Of a DNA stretch of 64,000 bases, positions 3,570-49,820 are shown one piece after another. Under the pieces are notes generated by a model. That model had not been told where the DNA came from and did no database searches. It saw only the letters and a program-made list of their open reading frames with translations. Location of the stretch: IMG/VR virus record IMGVR_UViG_3300032018_000001, positions 77,807 to 141,806 of that record, one strand, 5' to 3'. How positions within the stretch are numbered: position 1 is the first letter of the stretch; each line of letters opens with the position of its first letter. This stretch comes from a virus. Both the position numbers and the translations under genes were made by a program.

Positions 3570-3691
3570 TATGCTAACTAAATTTGTAGTAGCAACCAGC
3601 CCCCGGAGAGCAGCGCAAGCAGTCCGCGGTGTGCCTTGGGATGAGAAGTTTGACAGGAAACGCGCTGCTACAATTTTAAAAAGCAGAAACA

Positions 3692-4054
3692 ATGAAACAA
3701 CCAACACCTGACTTCGATAAGCCCCTTGACTTACTGGCTTTTATTTATAATAGTTTTGGTATCTGCGGATGCTCGCAGTTTGACGTTATTGTCAATGAGC
3801 TTAAACGTTTTTTGACGTGGGCGGGCGCTCCTATGGAAAACAGAAGTCTGTACATTACGCTGTATCCGCGTGATGGAATTTTTTATCTGATAGCAGGAAT
3901 GCTGGACAGGGCCAAGCTAATAGAGCACGGCACTGCTGTGCGTCATCCGTGGCTTACTGATACTGGTAAGGCTTTTCTTGCTGGGCTTAATAAGTACGCA
4001 GTGGAGCAGATTGACGAAGCTAAAGGTGATGCCTATGATGGTTGCACCTATTAA
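3692..4054 (+). CDS. hypothetical protein (winged-helix-like C-terminus)
   Basis: CGC motif, LIEHGT...WLTDTGK. Confidence 0.6.
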   Translation: MKQPTPDFDKPLDLLAFIYNSFGICGCSQFDVIVNELKRFLTWAGAPMENRSLYITLYPRDGIFYLIAGMLDRAKLIEHGTAVRHPWLTDTGKAFLAGLNKYAVEQIDEAKGDAYDGCTY

Positions 4055-4075
4055 CACACATTAAAAGGAGACAAA

Positions 4076-4456
4076 ATGAGAATCCTACAAATCGGAACGC
4101 AGAAGTACACGCAGGTTATTTGCAAGGATGAGCCTAACAGTGTGAATGGTGGCGGAGCCTGTCATTCCTACGCGGTGCTCCCAACAGAGGCGGATTTTAG
4201 CAAAGATGCAGCGGGAATACAGCTTGCTACTGTAAACTTTCAAAACGGCCCTATCAAAGAAGCGGGCGTGAACGGGTGCCACAACGAAGACCTGCTTGCA
4301 ATCGTCATTGACCGGCTGGAGCATTTCCAGAAGGGCTCCTTTGCTTGCCGGGAGAACGCGCTGGCACTGACCAAGTTGGAAGAGGCGATGCACTGGCTGC
4401 GGCACCGCACAAGCGCCAGGGAGGCCCGCGGCGTAGAAGGCACCAGCCAGAAATAG
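4076..4456 (+). CDS. tad1: Tad1/Acb2-family anti-defence signal sponge (Thoeris anti-defence 1-like)
   Basis: NFQNGPIKEAGVNG..NEDLL..VIDRLEHFQ...FACRENALALTKLEEAMHWL..RT..R..RGVEGT matches the Tad1 signature; AAGGAG RBS. Confidence 0.85.
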   Translation: MRILQIGTQKYTQVICKDEPNSVNGGGACHSYAVLPTEADFSKDAAGIQLATVNFQNGPIKEAGVNGCHNEDLLAIVIDRLEHFQKGSFACRENALALTKLEEAMHWLRHRTSAREARGVEGTSQK

Positions 4457-8585: not shown

Positions 8586-8876
8586 ATGAAAGAGCTGACC
8601 CTGAAAGATGTTGACTGCCTTGTCACATGGCCCCCTGGAAGCGTGGGAGAGCTTTCAGACCGGACAATGTTGAATGCCTACCTGGAGCTGTGCAAACACC
8701 ACGGGTACGGCCGCACGGGACAGATAGCAGAGTCCGTGGAGGACATCTGGAGGCATCCGGAGAAGACGGCCGATTATCAGGAACAGAAAACCAAGCACCT
8801 GCGGGAGATGGACGAACTTTTACTTAATGGTGTAGCAGGGTCTGTATTATTAACTCACTCTTGGTATTTTCTCTGA
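8586..8876 (+). CDS. hypothetical protein
   Basis: AAGGAG RBS. Confidence 0.6.
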   Translation: MKELTLKDVDCLVTWPPGSVGELSDRTMLNAYLELCKHHGYGRTGQIAESVEDIWRHPEKTADYQEQKTKHLREMDELLLNGVAGSVLLTHSWYFL

Positions 8877-8890
8877 AGTATTTATTTACT

Positions 8891-8940
8891 GTGCGGTAGA
8901 GCAGAGTCGAGTAATGCATCGTATCGTATAGGTTTTTTAA
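8891..8940 (+). repeat. pentamer-periodic GYA-NN array unit A (putative guide RNA)
   Basis: GTGcg GTAga GCAga GTCga GTAat GCAtc GTAtc GTAta GGTTTTTTAA; G exactly every 5 nt. Confidence 0.85.
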
Positions 8941-8955
8941 CAAAAGGAGAGGCAG

Positions 8956-9549
8956 ATGAAATCATTCAGAATTGGAATTGAGGCGAATCCGGTTTTTCCC
9001 TATTACATGCAGCACCGTATGGATGACACTAAACTAGCTGACTGGGAAAAGAATCGCGGAAAGATTATGGAGCGTCCGGAGCTTAGCAAGGAAGACAACC
9101 TGAGGGCGGAGTATCACGCTTACCGGGATGAGAGGGGTTACTACATACCAACGGAGCACATCCTTGGTGCAATCAAGATTGCCAGTAAGGAATTCAAATC
9201 CAAAACAGGCTCTGGAAGGAAGAGCATGAAGGATGAGGTAGCAGGAGGATTCTTTATTCAGGGAGATGAGAATCCGTAAAAACTGTACTTTGAATTTTCA
9301 GATTTTCAAATTGATAAACGGTCAGCCGTGAATCAGAATAACAAGGCCCGCATAATTGTTATCCGTCCTAAGTTTAAAGGATGGAAGGCACAATTCAATC
9401 TCATGGTGGATAACGAAACTGTGACCCCTGAGACCATCAGAGGTATTGTGGAGCACGCCGGGCAGTATGTGGGAATAGGAAGCTACAGGCCTCCTAAGGG
9501 CGGAGCGTTTGGGAGATTTAAGATTAGTACGTTTGCAAAAGCAGCGTAG
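8956..9549 (+). pseudogene. stand-alone RAMP/Cas7-like protein (197 codons) interrupted by one in-frame TAA at 9277-9279
   Basis: track ORFs 8956..9279 and 9328..9549 share a frame; YYIPTEHILGAIK helix motif and Gly-rich loop VGIGSYRPPKGGAFGRF; AAGGAG RBS. Confidence 0.7.
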
Positions 9550-9689
9550 CCTATTGCAGTGTACGTCATGTATTGTTTCGCTTTTATTTTTCTCGCATGG
9601 TAATGTATTGTAATGCACGGTAAGGTAAAGGTTTTTTAAATTGTATGCCGTGTCGTAATGTAATGTGTCGTTTGGTAACGTAGTGCAGC
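9541..9689 (+). repeat. pentamer-periodic GYA-NN array units B, C, D (putative guide RNAs)
   Basis: B 9541-9584 degenerate; C 9595-9640 GCAtg GTAat GTAtt GTAat GCAcg GTAag GTAaa GGTTTTTTAAA; D 9650-9689 GTGtc GTAat GTAat GTGtc GTTtg GTAac GTAgt GCAgc. Confidence 0.85.
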
Positions 9690-9722
9690 CCTGCTACTCT
9701 AACGGGTAGCAGGGCTTTTTTC
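9687..9722 (+). terminator. intrinsic terminator closing the array, CCCTGCTACT/GTAGCAGGG family
   Basis: AGCCCTGCTACTC-taac-GGGTAGCAGGGCT plus T-tract. Confidence 0.8.
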
Positions 9723-9859
9723 CCCCTGCTATTAGTACCTTCCGTAGTAGCTACCTGCTACGCTTTCGACATCCCCTGCCACTAATCATTATAATTGAAT
9801 TTTATCTTATTTGTGAAAAAGGAATAAAGCTCACACATCCTCACCGGCTGGAGCAGTTA

Positions 9860-19414: not shown

Positions 19415-19804
19415 ATGGCAGCAGGTTTTGTTTACATTACGGATGTGGTTGCGGTTGACGGCGCGGTCACGAAGACCATGAATGCAGACGGTGTTACTGT
19501 CAAAAGTGTCGAAGCAAACGGTTACGGAAAGCTGGTGACTGTTTCTGTTGCGGCCGAAACGGGCGAGCAGGAATACAAGCCGAAAGTTTCCGTGAATGGC
19601 GCTCTCTGCGCTAACCTCACCCGGCAGTCAAACGGTGACTGGACAGGCACCGTGGAAGTTTACATTGTGGGCGAGACACAGCTGGTTGCCAAGCACGAAG
19701 ACGGCGATGATTACGTGGTTCCGCTTATCACGGATGCCACGACAACCACGACCACGACCACAACGACAACGACAACCACGACAACGACCACAAGCGGCGT
19801 ATAA
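19415..19804 (+). CDS. virion decoration-like protein: ~100-aa beta module + T18-SGV tail
   Basis: paralogous module in 21975, 23342 and 26641 genes; AAGGAGG RBS. Confidence 0.7.
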   Translation: MAAGFVYITDVVAVDGAVTKTMNADGVTVKSVEANGYGKLVTVSVAAETGEQEYKPKVSVNGALCANLTRQSNGDWTGTVEVYIVGETQLVAKHEDGDDYVVPLITDATTTTTTTTTTTTTTTTTTSGV

Positions 19805-21978: not shown

Positions 21979-23333
21979 TTTTTAAAACACTGAAAGCTGG
22001 AGGAGATTACGCGACAGCTGCTGCTATGTGGGCGGATATTGGGGCCATGCTTCAGGCAGGCCTTACTGACCACATAGACGTAGAAGTTGACGGCGTGTTT
22101 GGTGACCCGGCTGTAACTTATACACATTCCACAGGAGCAGGACATAACTTTAATGCTTTCAATGTAACCATCCATTCTGCATCTACTCCTGCTACCCTAC
22201 TGGGTATTTTTGTTTTATCTCAGCCAGGAAGCCCCGCAGGCACTGGCAACTTGTATTTCAATCGTCTAATGATGGGGTCAAACAACTACTATGTTGTCAA
22301 AATGGCTACCAGCGCATCTAATAGAGCATTTTTTCAAGGATGCTTACTTGCCTTTCGCACTAACATTGCTGTTAGCGTTGCCGACTCTTCTGCTCAGGGA
22401 GCGGGAAGCATTAATAATTGTATCATCCTTATCTCAGGCACTGGTGGCTTAGCTATTTACACCGTAGGTACGTTCTATAATAACTTTGTGGGATTTTTTA
22501 GCGATACTGAGTTGACTCTGCAAAATGGCGGAGGTCAGGCTAACTCTGATAACACTTTCTGGAATTACGGAAGTGGAGCATTCACTTTTGCTGGAACATG
22601 GAATGCAACAACAAGCGACACTGATCCTCTTCTTGTTGGTGGAAATGTTATTGCCAGTGCTACCGATAGTGTTGCTGATATGCTTGCCGCAAATAGTCAA
22701 TCTTCTGAACTTTCCTGTCTTGTGAATTCTGTAGGAGCAGGTGGACTTGCTTTCGTGTATTCTCCTGACCTGCTAGGTGTGGAGCGTCCACAGGGAGCGG
22801 CTTCTGACAGAGGGTGCTATGAGCTGGTAATTGCGACCACCACAACCACAACCACAACCACGACCACAACCACAACCACGACCTTGACAACTACGACAAC
22901 CACAACCACAACAACTCAGACGGAAACCACGACTACAACCACGTTGACAACTACGACAACCACGACAACAACACTGAATCCGTTTCCGGATACGCCGCCC
23001 GTGCCGGTAGTACCTACCCCCGGTGCAGCAGGCTCAGTCTTCATTCATGATGTGGCGGGCATTGACGGTCTGGTTGTCAAAAACTTCAACTCAGACGGAA
23101 CGGTGCGTTACATTGAAGCAATCGGCGGAAGCAAGATTCAGGTGTCAGTATCGGCCCGCGTAGGTACACATAACTACAGGCCGGTAGTGACGGTGAACGG
23201 TGCCGTGGTTGATACCTTTACACGGCAAGCAAATGGTGACTGGCTAGGCACAGTGCTGGTGGCTTTGGATGATGAGCTGCATGTCCGCCATGAAGATAAC
23301 GGGCACTCAGCAATTCCTGTTGTACGAACATAA
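21975..23333 (+). CDS. beta-helix + 46-aa Thr-rich linker + ~100-aa shared module
   Basis: Thr tract 22836-22973; C-terminal module paralogous to 26641 gene. Confidence 0.7.
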   Translation: MIFKTLKAGGDYATAAAMWADIGAMLQAGLTDHIDVEVDGVFGDPAVTYTHSTGAGHNFNAFNVTIHSASTPATLLGIFVLSQPGSPAGTGNLYFNRLMMGSNNYYVVKMATSASNRAFFQGCLLAFRTNIAVSVADSSAQGAGSINNCIILISGTGGLAIYTVGTFYNNFVGFFSDTELTLQNGGGQANSDNTFWNYGSGAFTFAGTWNATTSDTDPLLVGGNVIASATDSVADMLAANSQSSELSCLVNSVGAGGLAFVYSPDLLGVERPQGAASDRGCYELVIATTTTTTTTTTTTTTTTLTTTTTTTTTTQTETTTTTTLTTTTTTTTTLNPFPDTPPVPVVPTPGAAGSVFIHDVAGIDGLVVKNFNSDGTVRYIEAIGGSKIQVSVSARVGTHNYRPVVTVNGAVVDTFTRQANGDWLGTVLVALDDELHVRHEDNGHSAIPVVRT

Positions 23334-26640: not shown

Positions 26641-27156
26641 ATGGCCGGTGCTTACACTGATGCATACTCTGATGCTTACGATAATGGAGAGCTTGTGACA
26701 ACCACAACGACTACGACAACTACAACAACGACCACAACTACTACCCTAACGTCAACTACTACCACGACCACAACTACTGTTACAACGACCACGACCACTC
26801 TTGCTCCTCCTCCTAAGTTACCGGACTTGCCGGTTATAGAAGGGGCGGCAGGGTCTGTCTTTATTCATGACGTGGGAGCGGTGGATGGCACAGTTGTAAA
26901 GAACTTTAACAGCGATGGAACGGTTAAGTATATTGAAGCCATCGGCGGAAGTCAGGTTGATGTTTCTGTTTCGGCGCGGGTAGGCACACAGCATTACATG
27001 CCAACCGTTACTGTGAACGGAGCAGTGGTTACTAATCTTGTCAGGCAGCCAAATGGAGACTGGTTAGGAACGGTACTTGTCGCACTGGATGATGTACTGC
27101 ATGTCAGACACGAAGATGAAGGACAGTCCGCTGTCCCGGTAGTGAGGATAGAATGA
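26641..27156 (+). CDS. AYxDAY motif + Thr-rich linker + shared ~100-aa module
   Basis: Thr tract 26698-26799; module closely similar to that of 21975 gene. Confidence 0.7.
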   Translation: MAGAYTDAYSDAYDNGELVTTTTTTTTTTTTTTTTLTSTTTTTTTTVTTTTTTLAPPPKLPDLPVIEGAAGSVFIHDVGAVDGTVVKNFNSDGTVKYIEAIGGSQVDVSVSARVGTQHYMPTVTVNGAVVTNLVRQPNGDWLGTVLVALDDVLHVRHEDEGQSAVPVVRIE

Positions 27157-27362: not shown

Positions 27363-27925
27363 TGTCCACGACTACTACGACAACCACGACTACTACAACA
27401 ACGACAACTACGCTTTGTCCGTTCACGCCGCGCATTAATTTGATGCCCAGCAGGAAAGAATCGGCGTTCTACCGGAGAAAGAACGATGAGCGCGTGGAGC
27501 TGCGTGGCGCTGGCTGCAGGCTGTTCAGGTCACAGGACGGCCCCGGCAAAATCATTGACAAGTTTGACAATGTAGTAGTAGCACCTGGAGCTGAGCCGGT
27601 TGCTATTCAGACGCGGGTAATTATCGAGCCGTATCAGGTGGCCAGAAACAAAATAGGGGATGACCATTCCACGGAATACACGGACTTCCCTTTCACGGCT
27701 ACGCTGCGGTTTTGCGATGATGCACGCCGCCTGGACTTGATAGAGATTGCTTATGAGTATGCGCGTGCGGCCGGGCTCACACGCTTTGCTTCAGGACAGC
27801 CGCGGGACATTACGCATATTTTCTATACTCGTTTCAAACTGGTCAACCGGGTTACGAGCGGAATCAATGCTGACCTTGTGAACAAATTCTTTATCAGCCC
27901 TACGGAGGAATCATGGAACGCTTAG
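27362..27925 (+). CDS. neck/head-closure-like protein with N-terminal T15 tract (tentative)
   Basis: coupled start at 27362; position in morphogenesis operon. Confidence 0.45.
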   Translation: MSTTTTTTTTTTTTTTTLCPFTPRINLMPSRKESAFYRRKNDERVELRGAGCRLFRSQDGPGKIIDKFDNVVVAPGAEPVAIQTRVIIEPYQVARNKIGDDHSTEYTDFPFTATLRFCDDARRLDLIEIAYEYARAAGLTRFASGQPRDITHIFYTRFKLVNRVTSGINADLVNKFFISPTEESWNA

Positions 27926-31592: not shown

Positions 31593-32387
31593 ATGCCCAT
31601 AACTGATTTGACTTACTACCGGCAGATTGAGGACTACATAGACGCCCTCAGGGCCTATCTGGCAGTCGCTACAGGCCTGCCACCGGAAAGGATAGTGTTC
31701 GGGCCTCCTGACATCGCCAAACGCAAGCTGAAGGAGCGTCTGGCCGTTCAGAATGGGTATCCTACGGACGGGAAGACCCTGGAGCTGGACAAGTTCCTGA
31801 GCTTCCATTTCCCCCTTACTACTCCAAACATCGCCTTTAACCGGCAGTCTCCCATGACTGTATTTTCCGGGAGCCTTGCGGGAGCGAGTGGCTACCGCGG
31901 CTTTCAAGACCAGTACGACCTGCCTGTGCAGGTAGACATCTGGGGCGGGCCTGCTCAGGATAGCAACTCCTTTGTTTTTGAGACGAAGACCAAGCTACAA
32001 TTCTGGCTGGAGCGGCACCAGAGGATTCAGGTGCAGTTCAGGGACTTGATTACGAAAGACCCCACACATCCGTTTGACCCTTATGATGTTTCCTGCTGGT
32101 ATGAGATTCTGCGGTGGACTGCTAATGATAATTCCAGGATTGAAAACTTGTTCACGGAAGGCACCGTTTACAGGGTGACATTTGAATTCAACTGGATGAT
32201 AAGCCTTTACCGCTTCTTTATCAACGATAATGAGAAGGTGCATTCCATCGGGCATATCATACTAATGATGCTTAATGATGAGACCAAACAGTATGACCAG
32301 GAATGGGATACTAATGATTACACGACTACTACGACAAGCACTACTACGACAACGACCACAACCACGACTACTACAAGCGGCATATAG
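31593..32387 (+). CDS. tail terminator / sheath stabiliser (gp15-like position) with poly-Thr-SGI tail
   Basis: immediately upstream of sheath; YDLPVQVDIW, VYRVTFEF strands. Confidence 0.55.
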   Translation: MPITDLTYYRQIEDYIDALRAYLAVATGLPPERIVFGPPDIAKRKLKERLAVQNGYPTDGKTLELDKFLSFHFPLTTPNIAFNRQSPMTVFSGSLAGASGYRGFQDQYDLPVQVDIWGGPAQDSNSFVFETKTKLQFWLERHQRIQVQFRDLITKDPTHPFDPYDVSCWYEILRWTANDNSRIENLFTEGTVYRVTFEFNWMISLYRFFINDNEKVHSIGHIILMMLNDETKQYDQEWDTNDYTTTTTSTTTTTTTTTTTTSGI

Positions 32388-49076: not shown

Positions 49077-49820
49077 ATGCCGCAGGTAATTTTTTCACCC
49101 ATGGCCATATACAAGTACTTTCGTCAGCTAGTGCAGGGTCACACAGGCACCGGCTCAGAAGTACAAGGATTTTACGTTGATAAGTCCATAGGAGCCCCAG
49201 GACAGCCCATTAAACAGCTTAAGTATTTTATGGTGGGTATGGGCGGGCCAGCGACAGCAGAGCTCACGGAAACCTTTTTCCATGATAACTGCATGACCAC
49301 GCCTAAAGGAAAACTGGCGTCTCCTATTCGCCTTTTTTCTTCCGGGTCTGACCCTCAAGCTTACGGCGGAGACCCGTATAAGCATGCTCTCGATGATACC
49401 AACTTCTACAATTATGGAAACTCGCAGGATTCAAAGGTTATAGGTGTGCTTAGTGTGCTTCCTCGTTCAGGTGGCGACTTGGGGAAATACTGGGATATTC
49501 CTGGTGTGGCATTCCAGGTGGCCTGCCACTTATCTGCAGGAGAGGGTAACTATACCAATGTTCCATCACCTAATACTCCTGTAGTATCTCCGGATGTTGT
49601 CCTTATTAACGAGGTGGGAGTTTTCGATGAGGATGACATCCTGATTTTGTACGGCGTGTTTCCAGCACGGTCAAAGAATGATACGCTGTCATTCAAAGCA
49701 AACTGTGTGGCCATGCTGAAGATTCTCGATTATCAGTTGGTGTTGTTGCCTACTACGACTACAACGACAACCACGACTACAACCACGACAACTACGACCA
49801 CAACGACTTCCGGTATGTAA
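49077..49820 (+). CDS. tail fibre attachment (collar-like) protein with T19-SGM tail
   Basis: INEVGVFDEDD.LI.Y..FP.RSK motif; AGGAG RBS before 49077. Confidence 0.65.
   Translation: MPQVIFSPMAIYKYFRQLVQGHTGTGSEVQGFYVDKSIGAPGQPIKQLKYFMVGMGGPATAELTETFFHDNCMTTPKGKLASPIRLFSSGSDPQAYGGDPYKHALDDTNFYNYGNSQDSKVIGVLSVLPRSGGDLGKYWDIPGVAFQVACHLSAGEGNYTNVPSPNTPVVSPDVVLINEVGVFDEDDILILYGVFPARSKNDTLSFKANCVAMLKILDYQLVLLPTTTTTTTTTTTTTTTTTTTSGM

What the first reader, a model, noticed from the sequence alone, without database searches (positions are those of the whole stretch)
8891..9722. Candidate phage RNA-guided system: lone Cas7/RAMP-like gene flanked by pentamer-coded arrays
Seen: one 197-codon gene with RAMP-type hallmarks (N-terminal strand ..PYYMQH, YYIPTEHILGAIK, Gly-rich loop GIGSYRPPKGGAFGRF). 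One ~45-nt GYA-NN unit lies immediately 5' and three lie 3', closed by a strong terminator, so gene and arrays plausibly form one transcript. There are no cas1/cas3/cas6 genes and no repeat-spacer CRISPR. Established: Cas7/RAMP proteins oligomerise along guide RNA with fixed periodicity. Inference: each protomer grips the constant GYA and displays the variable NN, giving a non-contiguous guide for silencing rival phage or host genes. From memory (unverified), this layout resembles the recently reported VIPR systems with GGY/NN guides; the constant triplet here is GYA, so it may be a distinct variant.
Basis: partly seen in the sequence, partly recalled or inferred. Interest (0 to 1): 0.95.

Follow-up and report, generated by a model that had tools for sequence, protein, structure and literature searches.

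The report
Phage VIPR locus with broken vipr
This is a real example of the VIPR system described in 2026 (a small Cas7-like protein plus guide RNAs built of five-base repeats) in a 142-kb sediment phage; it belongs to a known non-canonical branch, and its protein gene carries a premature stop codon.

Summary
Gene 8956-9549 (+) has 197 codons with an in-frame TAA at 9277-9279. It is flanked on the same strand by one 5' and three 3' runs of G-Y-N-N-N pentamers, closed by a strong terminator.

The protein is a Vipr. A profile of its family matches PDB 36pp, "SUSP1 Vipr protein" (E 1e-14, full length). Its model is closest to Csm3/Cas7 subunits.

14 of 15 IMG/VR relatives carry same-strand pentamer arrays beside the gene. 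No accessory gene is conserved.

Family-wide only G-Y is constant. A at position 3 is local to this window (18/23 units against 34%). Two relatives' guides match nearby genes only when the two bases right after G-Y are read with one base skipped. Preprints already report this scaffold as YNNNG; WGT/NN probably denotes the same.

The TAA is a genuine stop in this genome and sits where relatives mostly have Glu. The gene downstream of it shows no decay. I read this as recent inactivation.

No target of the window's guides was found.

The scan holds 305 earlier notes on VIPR-like loci in other genomes. Verdict: a new member of a known kind, of modest interest.

The parts
8891..8930 (+). vrRNA-like array A: 8 pentamers GTGCG GTAGA GCAGA GTCGA GTAAT GCATC GTATC GTATA
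   Evidence: Its last 20 nt plus the tail are 83% identical to the end of array C.
8931..8940 (+). 3' tail of A, GGTTTTTTAA. It lies 15 nt before the vipr start. The ribosome-binding site AAGGAGAGG is at 8944-8952.
   Evidence: Relatives end their arrays with GTTTA GTATA GTTTT TT in the same place.
8956..9549 (+). vipr gene (Cas7-like RAMP), 197 codons, interrupted by TAA at codon 108
   Evidence: PHROG 4652, E 1e-20. 138 homologues of about 190 aa. PDB 36pp SUSP1 Vipr, E 1.2e-14. AF2 pLDDT 80.5; top Foldseek hits are Csm3.
9277..9279 (+). In-frame TAA nonsense codon
   Evidence: The aligned column holds E in 32 and D in 13 of 56 homologues. TAA ends 49 of 107 long + strand ORFs. No tRNA gene in the genome. 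An independent Logan contig at depth 79 carries the same base.
9556..9594 (+). Array B, degenerate: GCAGT GTACG TCAT GTATT GTTTC GCTTT, then TATTTTTCTC
   Evidence: One 4-nt step breaks the period.
9595..9639 (+). Array C: 7 pentamers GCATG GTAAT GTATT GTAAT GCACG GTAAG GTAAA, then the tail GGTTTTTTAA
9643..9689 (+). Array D: GTATG+CC, then 8 pentamers GTGTC GTAAT GTAAT GTGTC GTTTG GTAAC GTAGT GCAGC
9687..9722 (+). Intrinsic terminator: 13-bp stem (8 G-C pairs), 4-nt loop, T6

Best explanation
This is a VIPR (Viral Interference Programmable Repeat) locus in a circular 141.7-kb phage genome from a sediment metagenome. The phage has a T4-like head protease and a Gp23-like capsid protein.

The locus holds a vipr gene and four pentamer-repeat guide-RNA (vrRNA) units, one upstream and three downstream. 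It belongs to a large clade with no conserved accessory (vap) gene, whose repeat keeps only G-Y of the canonical G-G-Y.

By homology with the solved SUSP1 complex, one Vipr protomer would bind each pentamer. It would bury G-Y, plus the now unspecified base before it, and present the next two bases. Those two bases pair with double-stranded DNA while every third target base is skipped, and this silences transcription of a rival mobile element.

What is shown: the homology, the fold, the arrays, the family-wide association, and the reading rule in two relatives. What is inferred: transcription, RNA binding and silencing.

In this phage the vipr gene carries a genuine TAA stop at codon 108, ahead of the thumb and the G-loop. 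The locus is therefore most likely recently inactivated.

My odds: VIPR membership 0.93; guide bases are positions 3-4 rather than 4-5, 0.75; the protein is currently non-functional, 0.6.
For: Homology and fold:
- A family profile matches PDB 36pp_D, 'SUSP1 Vipr protein', over 1-187 of 190 positions, E 1.2e-14.
- tblastn hits the phiSUSP1 vipr gene, 27.8% identity over 94% of the query.
- The AF2 model has pLDDT 80.5. Its best PDB folds are Csm3/Cas7 of type III-A and type VII complexes, E 2e-6, probability 1.00.

RNA-contact residues named in bioRxiv 10.64898/2026.04.26.720927, mapped by alignment:
- H17, R138, P139, R179 and the G-loop glycines are invariant.
- W178 becomes Y or F. D177, a contact of the first G, becomes Ser, which fits loss of that G.

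Arrays and neighbours:
- 14 of 15 IMG/VR relatives have same-strand G-Y-N-N-N arrays next to the gene, 52 arrays in all sources scanned.
- The family logo has G 0.97 and Y 0.99, with about 0.1 bit at each other position.
- No neighbouring gene is conserved.

Reading rule:
- A vrRNA of L011 matches its own vipr 3' end at 20 of 20 guide bases and the L006 vipr at 19 of 20. The guide bases fall on codon positions 1-2 and the skipped base on the wobble position. Position 5 matches the wobble base only 4 of 11 times.
- The same 18-base pattern occurs only three times in all of IMG/VR; two of the three are these vipr genes.
- The L013 vrRNA matches the adjacent ORF in frame at 17 of 18.
- Among eight reading rules, only 'positions 3-4 plus one skip' gives own-locus matches of at least 0.9 over nine units: 2 of 44 arrays, against 0 in 20 shuffles.

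The stop codon.
Against: - No RNA data exist for this uncultured phage, so transcription, processing and binding are untested.
- No target was found for the window's own guides.
- The window's arrays are short (7-8 units) and low in complexity: GTAAT occurs five times.
- A is enriched at position 3 and position 5 is unbiased, unlike in relatives. The paralogous ends of A and C differ only at positions 4 and 5.
- The part of the gene after the stop is as conserved as the part before it. A functional, read-through or polymorphic gene is therefore not excluded.
- The reading rule rests on two guides in relatives that share only 45-55% protein identity with this Vipr.
Confidence: 0.8

Rival explanations
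1. This phage uses a shifted scaffold in which G-Y-A is the buried constant triplet and positions 4-5 are the guide bases. That would make it a distinct VIPR variant.
For: - A at position 3 in 18 of 23 units, against 34% in relatives.
- Position 5 is unbiased here but A/T-rich in relatives.
- The 30-nt paralogous ends of A and C differ only at positions 4 and 5.
Against: - The closest relative (67% identity) has A at position 3 in only 7 of 15 units.
- The residues that hold G2 and Y3 in SUSP1 are conserved here. According to 10.64898/2026.04.26.720927 the Y3 pocket excludes purines.
- In relatives the rule 'positions 4-5 plus one skip' gave no own-locus match.
- There are only 23 units, many of them copies of GTAAT or GTATN.
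Confidence: 0.12
2. The locus still works. Either the TAA is read through or suppressed at a useful level, or the assembled consensus hides a population in which many genomes carry a sense codon.
For: All invariant residues downstream of the stop are intact. The C-terminal part has 52.6% mean identity to relatives against 52.2% for the N-terminal part.
Against: - TAA is the commonest real stop in this genome.
- There is no suppressor tRNA gene.
- Two assemblies of the sample agree at depth of about 79, though both come from the same reads.
- A very recent mutation explains the intact downstream part equally well.
Confidence: 0.2
3. The phage is on its way to the 'solo vrRNA' state described in bioRxiv 10.64898/2026.10.15.759431. 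Its own vipr is dead, but the arrays are kept because they load onto the Vipr protein of co-infecting relatives and redirect it.
For: - A nonsense codon in vipr sits beside arrays A, C and D that still have an intact period and tails.
- Phages that lack vipr but keep guides are documented for the SUSP1 family.
Against: - No target was found, so nothing shows that the guides are under selection.
- Array B is already degenerate.
- The published cases have deleted vipr rather than carrying a point mutation in it.
Confidence: 0.15
4. The pentamer runs are not guide RNAs. They would be terminators or A/T-rich spacers that happen to show a 5-nt period.
For: Array A with its T-run folds as a hairpin followed by U6 (-18.6 kcal/mol, z -3.3), which is like an intrinsic terminator for the upstream gene.
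Against: - The same period, strand and G-Y phase recur beside 14 of 15 distant homologues, with up to 73 units per array.
- Runs of this length occur nowhere else in the genome.
- Guides in two relatives decode to neighbouring genes.
Confidence: 0.03

Closest known systems
Type II VIPR of Escherichia phage SUSP1 (Vipr, vap1, four vrRNAs; bioRxiv 10.64898/2026.04.26.720920 and .720927; PDB 36pp)
   Same: - Homologous Vipr protein of about 195 aa with the same G-loop and thumb residues.
- One vrRNA upstream and three downstream, all on the gene's strand.
- 5-nt repeat with constant and variable positions.
- Phage-borne.
   Different: - 28% protein identity.
- The repeat keeps G-Y, not G-G-Y (D177 becomes Ser).
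- No vap gene.
- The tail is a short GTAWA-GG-T6 instead of a roughly 60-nt pseudoknot tail.
- Units are about 45 nt rather than about 100 nt.
- vipr is interrupted by a stop codon.
Non-canonical VIPR repeat classes already in print: YNNNG (methods of 10.64898/2026.04.26.720920); WGT/NN and TGH/NN (10.64898/2026.10.21.760802)
   Same: The family logo here is (A/T-rich)-G-T/C-N-N. This is what those names describe, and a Vipr-like fold is encoded next to the arrays.
   Different: I could not check whether this exact clade is among their clusters or which of the seven types it is, because the figures and tables are not held. The local excess of A at the first variable position is not described there.
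VIPR-null phages with solo vrRNAs (bioRxiv 10.64898/2026.10.15.759431)
   Same: Guide arrays are retained without a working vipr gene.
   Different: Here vipr is present and otherwise intact, broken only by one nonsense codon. The published cases are in Enterobacteriaceae phages that use the GGY grammar.
Cas7/Csm3 backbone subunits of class 1 CRISPR-Cas effectors
   Same: RRM core, thumb and glycine-rich loop. These are the best structural matches in the PDB library searched.
   Different: No CRISPR array and no other cas genes. Periodicity is 5 nt rather than 6 nt. About 10% sequence identity.

Membership tests
VIPR | Vipr protein homologous to the described Vipr family | tested here: met
   Profile against PDB 36pp 'SUSP1 Vipr protein', E 1.2e-14, full length. 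tblastn to phiSUSP1, E 3e-9. Alignment.
VIPR | RAMP fold with thumb and glycine-rich loop | tested here: met
   AF2 model pLDDT 80.5, pTM 0.77. Foldseek top hits are Csm3/Cas7, probability 1.00, TM 0.45-0.51. The G-loop GIGSYRP...FGRF aligns to SUSP1 GVGDWRP..FGRF.
VIPR | Pentanucleotide tandem repeats with constant and hypervariable positions beside the gene, on its strand | tested here: met
   Also present in 14 of 15 relatives.
VIPR | Canonical GGY/NN consensus | tested here: not met
   Only G-Y is constant. The preprint admits 'a related consensus', including YNNNG, so this does not exclude membership.
VIPR | Gapped reading: two guide bases per repeat, one target base skipped | tested here: inconclusive
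   Met in two relatives (L011 20/20, L013 17/18). No target was found for the window's own guides.
VIPR | Accessory vap gene (typical, not universal) | tested here: not met
   No neighbouring ORF is shared among the 16 loci compared (window plus L001-L015). The upstream 96-aa ORF has no Pfam, PHROG or PADLOC hit.
VIPR | Conserved 3' tail after the repeat tract | tested here: inconclusive
   A and C share GTAWA-GGTTTTTTAA. Relatives share GTTTA GTATA GTTTT TT. This is much shorter than the SUSP1 pseudoknot tail, and D ends in a hairpin instead.
VIPR | vrRNAs are expressed and bound by Vipr, and they silence the target | not testable with these tools
   Only one DNA run holds the sequence, and no RNA holder is listed.
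VIPR | Intact vipr reading frame | tested here: not met
   TAA at codon 108.
CRISPR-Cas | Repeat-spacer array and cas1/cas2 or effector cas genes | tested here: not met
   No such array appears in TRF or repeat scans of the window. The ten flanking ORFs scanned between 5915 and 17710 are phage head, nuclease or unknown genes. PADLOC, run only on the vipr product and the upstream 96-aa ORF, gave no hit.

The most novel reading that the evidence does not exclude
The locus is a VIPR system caught at the moment it loses its protein, a point-mutated vipr with guides still intact. This would be a first intermediate on the road to the solo-guide state. In addition, this vap-less G-Y clade uses some guides on the phage's own genes: L011 on its own vipr and L013 on the gene next door. 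That would mean self-regulation rather than warfare only, a use the VIPR preprints did not find among the systems they tested for self-targeting.
Probability: 0.15. Interest if true: 0.55.

Novelty: new member of a known kind. Interest (0 to 1): 0.3.

Why it matters
The locus adds an environmental example, in a large sediment phage with T4-like head genes, to a family known mainly from enterobacterial and Pseudomonas phages.

The comparison with relatives gives computational support that the branch keeping only G-Y still reads two bases and skips one. It also ties the lost first G to one residue change, Asp to Ser in the G-loop. That prediction is useful for anyone reprogramming these smaller scaffolds.

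The premature stop shows that such loci can be lost by point mutation as well as by deletion. None of this changes the picture drawn by the 2026 preprints.

Tried and rejected
Searches that gave nothing:
- Pfam found no family for the protein.
- blastn of the locus against GenBank phages found no match.
- Rfam found nothing above chance, and no hammerhead ribozyme.
- PADLOC found nothing.
- Only one DNA run holds the sequence, probably its source. No RNA holder is listed, so this says nothing on expression.
- The metagenome-contig search for close relatives found only a 30%-identical canonical GGY locus with an HNH-like neighbour.

Target searches for the window's guides:
- Eleven reading rules against the phage's own genome stayed within shuffle controls. 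The locus itself was masked in that scan.
- A scan against 19 vipr genes, this phage's own included, found nothing above controls.
- Exact IMG/VR scans under 'positions 3-4 plus one skip' gave 12 hits for guide A, about 7 of them independent. Guide D gave 90 hits, about 42 independent among the 80 loci fetched. Both are close to what chance predicts. The hits fall into many unrelated genes, and the clusters are near-identical copies of one phage each.
- One site in L103, in a virion structural protein, matches 23 of 24 bases of guide D's joined triplets. Given 90 hits, I put its chance probability at about 0.03-0.3, so I do not trust it.

Other tests:
- A 10-unit seed from a guide of L009 found nothing in IMG/VR.
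- A test of whether the clade's guides generally spell Vipr peptides was not above controls.
- The idea that position 5 also pairs, giving a contiguous triplet code, is rejected. It matches the wobble base 4 of 11 times in L011 and 2 of 12 in L013.
- Genome-wide recoding of TAA is rejected.

Full report
**What is in the sequence**

On the + strand an ORF starts at 8956 behind a good ribosome-binding site (AAGGAGAGG, 8944-8952) and runs to the TAG at 9547-9549. It is interrupted by an in-frame TAA at 9277-9279, so table 11 gives a 107-aa ORF and a 73-aa ORF in the same frame.

Four tracts with a 5-nt rhythm G-[CT]-N-N-N flank the gene on the same strand:
- A, 8891-8930: 8 units, then GGTTTTTTAA.
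- B, 9556-9594: degenerate, with one 4-nt step.
- C, 9595-9629: 7 units, then GGTTTTTTAA.
- D, 9650-9689: 8 units. It runs into a 13-bp hairpin with a T-run at 9687-9722.

A, C and D are the only runs of 7 or more such units on either strand of the window and of the whole genome.

**Genome context**

The window is the last 64 kb of a single 141,806-bp contig. Its ends overlap by 127 bp, so it is a circular assembly. The only public run that holds it is a sediment metagenome.

Directly downstream lie a T4-type prohead protease (Peptidase_S77), a Gp23-like major capsid protein and two endonuclease VII-like genes. The element is therefore a large tailed phage.

**What the protein is**

Pfam has nothing. 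PHROG 4652, of unknown function, matches across the stop codon (E 1e-20). At least 138 uninterrupted homologues of about 190 aa exist in metagenomes.

A profile of 16 of them matches PDB 36pp chain D, "SUSP1 Vipr protein", over its full length (E 1.2e-14). tblastn with the window's protein finds the vipr gene of Escherichia phage phiSUSP1 and more than 100 Felix O1-like phages at about 28% identity.

An AlphaFold2 model built on 57 sequences has mean pLDDT 80.5. Its best PDB matches are Csm3/Cas7 subunits of type III-A and type VII complexes (Foldseek E 2e-6, probability 1.00, TM 0.45-0.51).

A profile search of 1.84 billion representatives finds 5,354 relatives at E of 0.001 or better, and 32 in the close clade at E of 1e-30 or better. 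The protein is a member of the Vipr family described in bioRxiv 10.64898/2026.04.26.720920.

**Do relatives have the arrays?**

Fifteen IMG/VR loci encoding relatives (43-57% identity) were fetched. Fourteen carry G-Y-N-N-N arrays on the gene's strand next to the gene.
- Arrays lie upstream, downstream or on both sides, and have 6 to 73 units.
- They often end in GTTTA GTATA GTTTT TT.
- Arrays of 7 or more units number 52 across all sources scanned, the window's genome and later loci included.
- No other gene is conserved beside vipr, so this clade has no vap gene.

**Which positions are constant?**

Over 630 units from relatives, G is 97% and the pyrimidine 99% (T 87%). The three remaining positions carry about 0.1 bit each. 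Position 3 is A in 34%, and position 5 is A or T in 71%.

In the window, position 3 is A in 18 of 23 units and position 5 is unbiased. The closest relative (67% identity) has A at position 3 in 7 of 15 units. "GYA" is therefore a local feature, not the family scaffold.

The first preprint lists YNNNG among the alternative repeats. A later preprint (10.64898/2026.10.21.760802) lists WGT/NN among 21 non-canonical clusters with a Vipr-like fold next to them.

**Register and reading rule**

The structure preprint (10.64898/2026.04.26.720927) names the SUSP1 residues that hold each scaffold base:
- G1: H17 and D177.
- G2: R138 and W178.
- Y3: E71, M72, R179 and C173.

In the alignment with SUSP1 Vipr, H17, R138-P139, R179-P180 and the loop glycines are invariant. 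W178 is Y or F, E71 is kept, and D177 is Ser. This predicts that G2-Y3 is retained and G1 has become free. The guide bases would then be the two directly after G-Y.

I tested this on the relatives.
- The vrRNA downstream of vipr in L011 (3601-3655), read this way, gives CA AA GG GA TT GG GT TT GA AT. This matches codon positions 1-2 of ten consecutive codons (HKGEFGVFDI) at the 3' end of its own vipr gene, 20 of 20. It matches the L006 vipr at 19 of 20.
- The fifth base matches the wobble base only 4 of 11 times. Other vipr genes match at 11-17 of 20.
- The 18-base pattern occurs three times in all of IMG/VR. Two of the three are these genes.
- The single vrRNA of L013 matches the ORF next door in frame at 17 of 18 (20 of 24 overall).
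- In a systematic own-locus test of eight rules, only "positions 3-4 plus one skipped base" gave matches of at least 0.9 over nine units. That was 2 of 44 arrays, against none in 20 shuffles per rule.

There are caveats. This rests on two guides in relatives.

**The stop codon**

- TAA ends 49 of 107 long + strand ORFs, so it is not recoded.
- The genome has no tRNA gene.
- Logan's independent assembly of the same run carries the same base at depth of about 79.
- In 56 homologues the aligned residue is E (32) or D (13), so a single G-to-T change of GAA explains the TAA.
- The part after the stop keeps every invariant residue and is as similar to relatives as the part before it.
- The 107-aa product would lack the thumb and the G-loop.

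The simplest reading is a recent inactivating mutation. Read-through, or a mixed population, cannot be excluded.

**Transcription (inferred only)**

The spacers between B, C and D are too short for promoters, unlike the 30-48-nt A/T-rich spacers with -10-like boxes in relatives. The three downstream units are therefore probably made as one transcript with vipr, ending at the 9687-9722 terminator. The consensus scan finds no promoter upstream of A.

**Targets**

No target of the window's guides was found in its own genome, in 19 vipr genes, or in IMG/VR above chance. With 7-8 units, and fewer if the shared 3' portion is a handle, the guides are too short for a database-wide prediction.

**Comparison and verdict**

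The locus meets the defining features of VIPR that can be tested in silico. It lacks the canonical first G, a vap gene and an intact reading frame. All three kinds of departure are, in general form, already in print: alternative consensus, types without vap, and phages that lost vipr but kept guides. The scan's own index holds 305 notes on VIPR-like loci in at least 223 genomes.

It is a new member of a known kind. The interesting residue is the nonsense-broken vipr and, in relatives, the self-matching guides.

Noticed in passing
L011:3601-3655 against L011:3517-3546 (IMG/VR contig 3300014204_000232): A vrRNA just downstream of vipr decodes, with two bases read and one skipped, to a perfect 20/20 match with the G-loop codons of its own vipr gene, and 19/20 with the vipr of L006. 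The first VIPR preprint reports no self-targeting. This could be autoregulation, or a weapon against near relatives that also hits the phage itself.
   Followed up: partly
L013:3531-3590 against L013:4023-4058: The only vrRNA of this locus matches the ORF immediately downstream (3615-4241, 208 aa, unknown function). The match is in frame with the skipped base at the wobble position, 17 of 18 in the core and 20 of 24 overall.
   Followed up: partly
window 8889-8938: Array A together with its T-run folds as a hairpin followed by U6 (-18.6 kcal/mol for 8880-8955, z -3.3). It may also serve as the terminator of the upstream 96-aa ORF.
   Followed up: no
window 9688-9721: The terminator hairpin also occurs, with 2 differences, in a separate 6-kb contig of the same metagenome at depth 61. 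Partial copies of GTAGCAGGG / CCTGCTAC lie at 8832-8840 and 9754-9769. This may be a shared terminator element among co-occurring phages.
   Followed up: no
window 19737-19793, 22839-22973, 26698-26799, 27366-27411, 32322-32376, 49750-49807: Six + strand stretches, where ORFs run, carry ACC/ACA/ACG-rich tandem repeats, which would give Thr-rich linkers.
   Followed up: no
L126 (metagenome contig Ga0074195_1015021): A Vipr at 30% identity is flanked by canonical GGY/NN arrays on both sides. It is followed by a small ORF whose sequence reads like an HNH nuclease (by eye, no family search), apparently one of the published nuclease-associated VIPR types.
   Followed up: no
L006:2619-2973 and L015:3599-3963: Continuous arrays of 71 and 73 pentamers are punctuated every 10-12 units by GTATT-TT. 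This looks like the 'staggered' overlapping vrRNA arrays mentioned in the first preprint.
   Followed up: no
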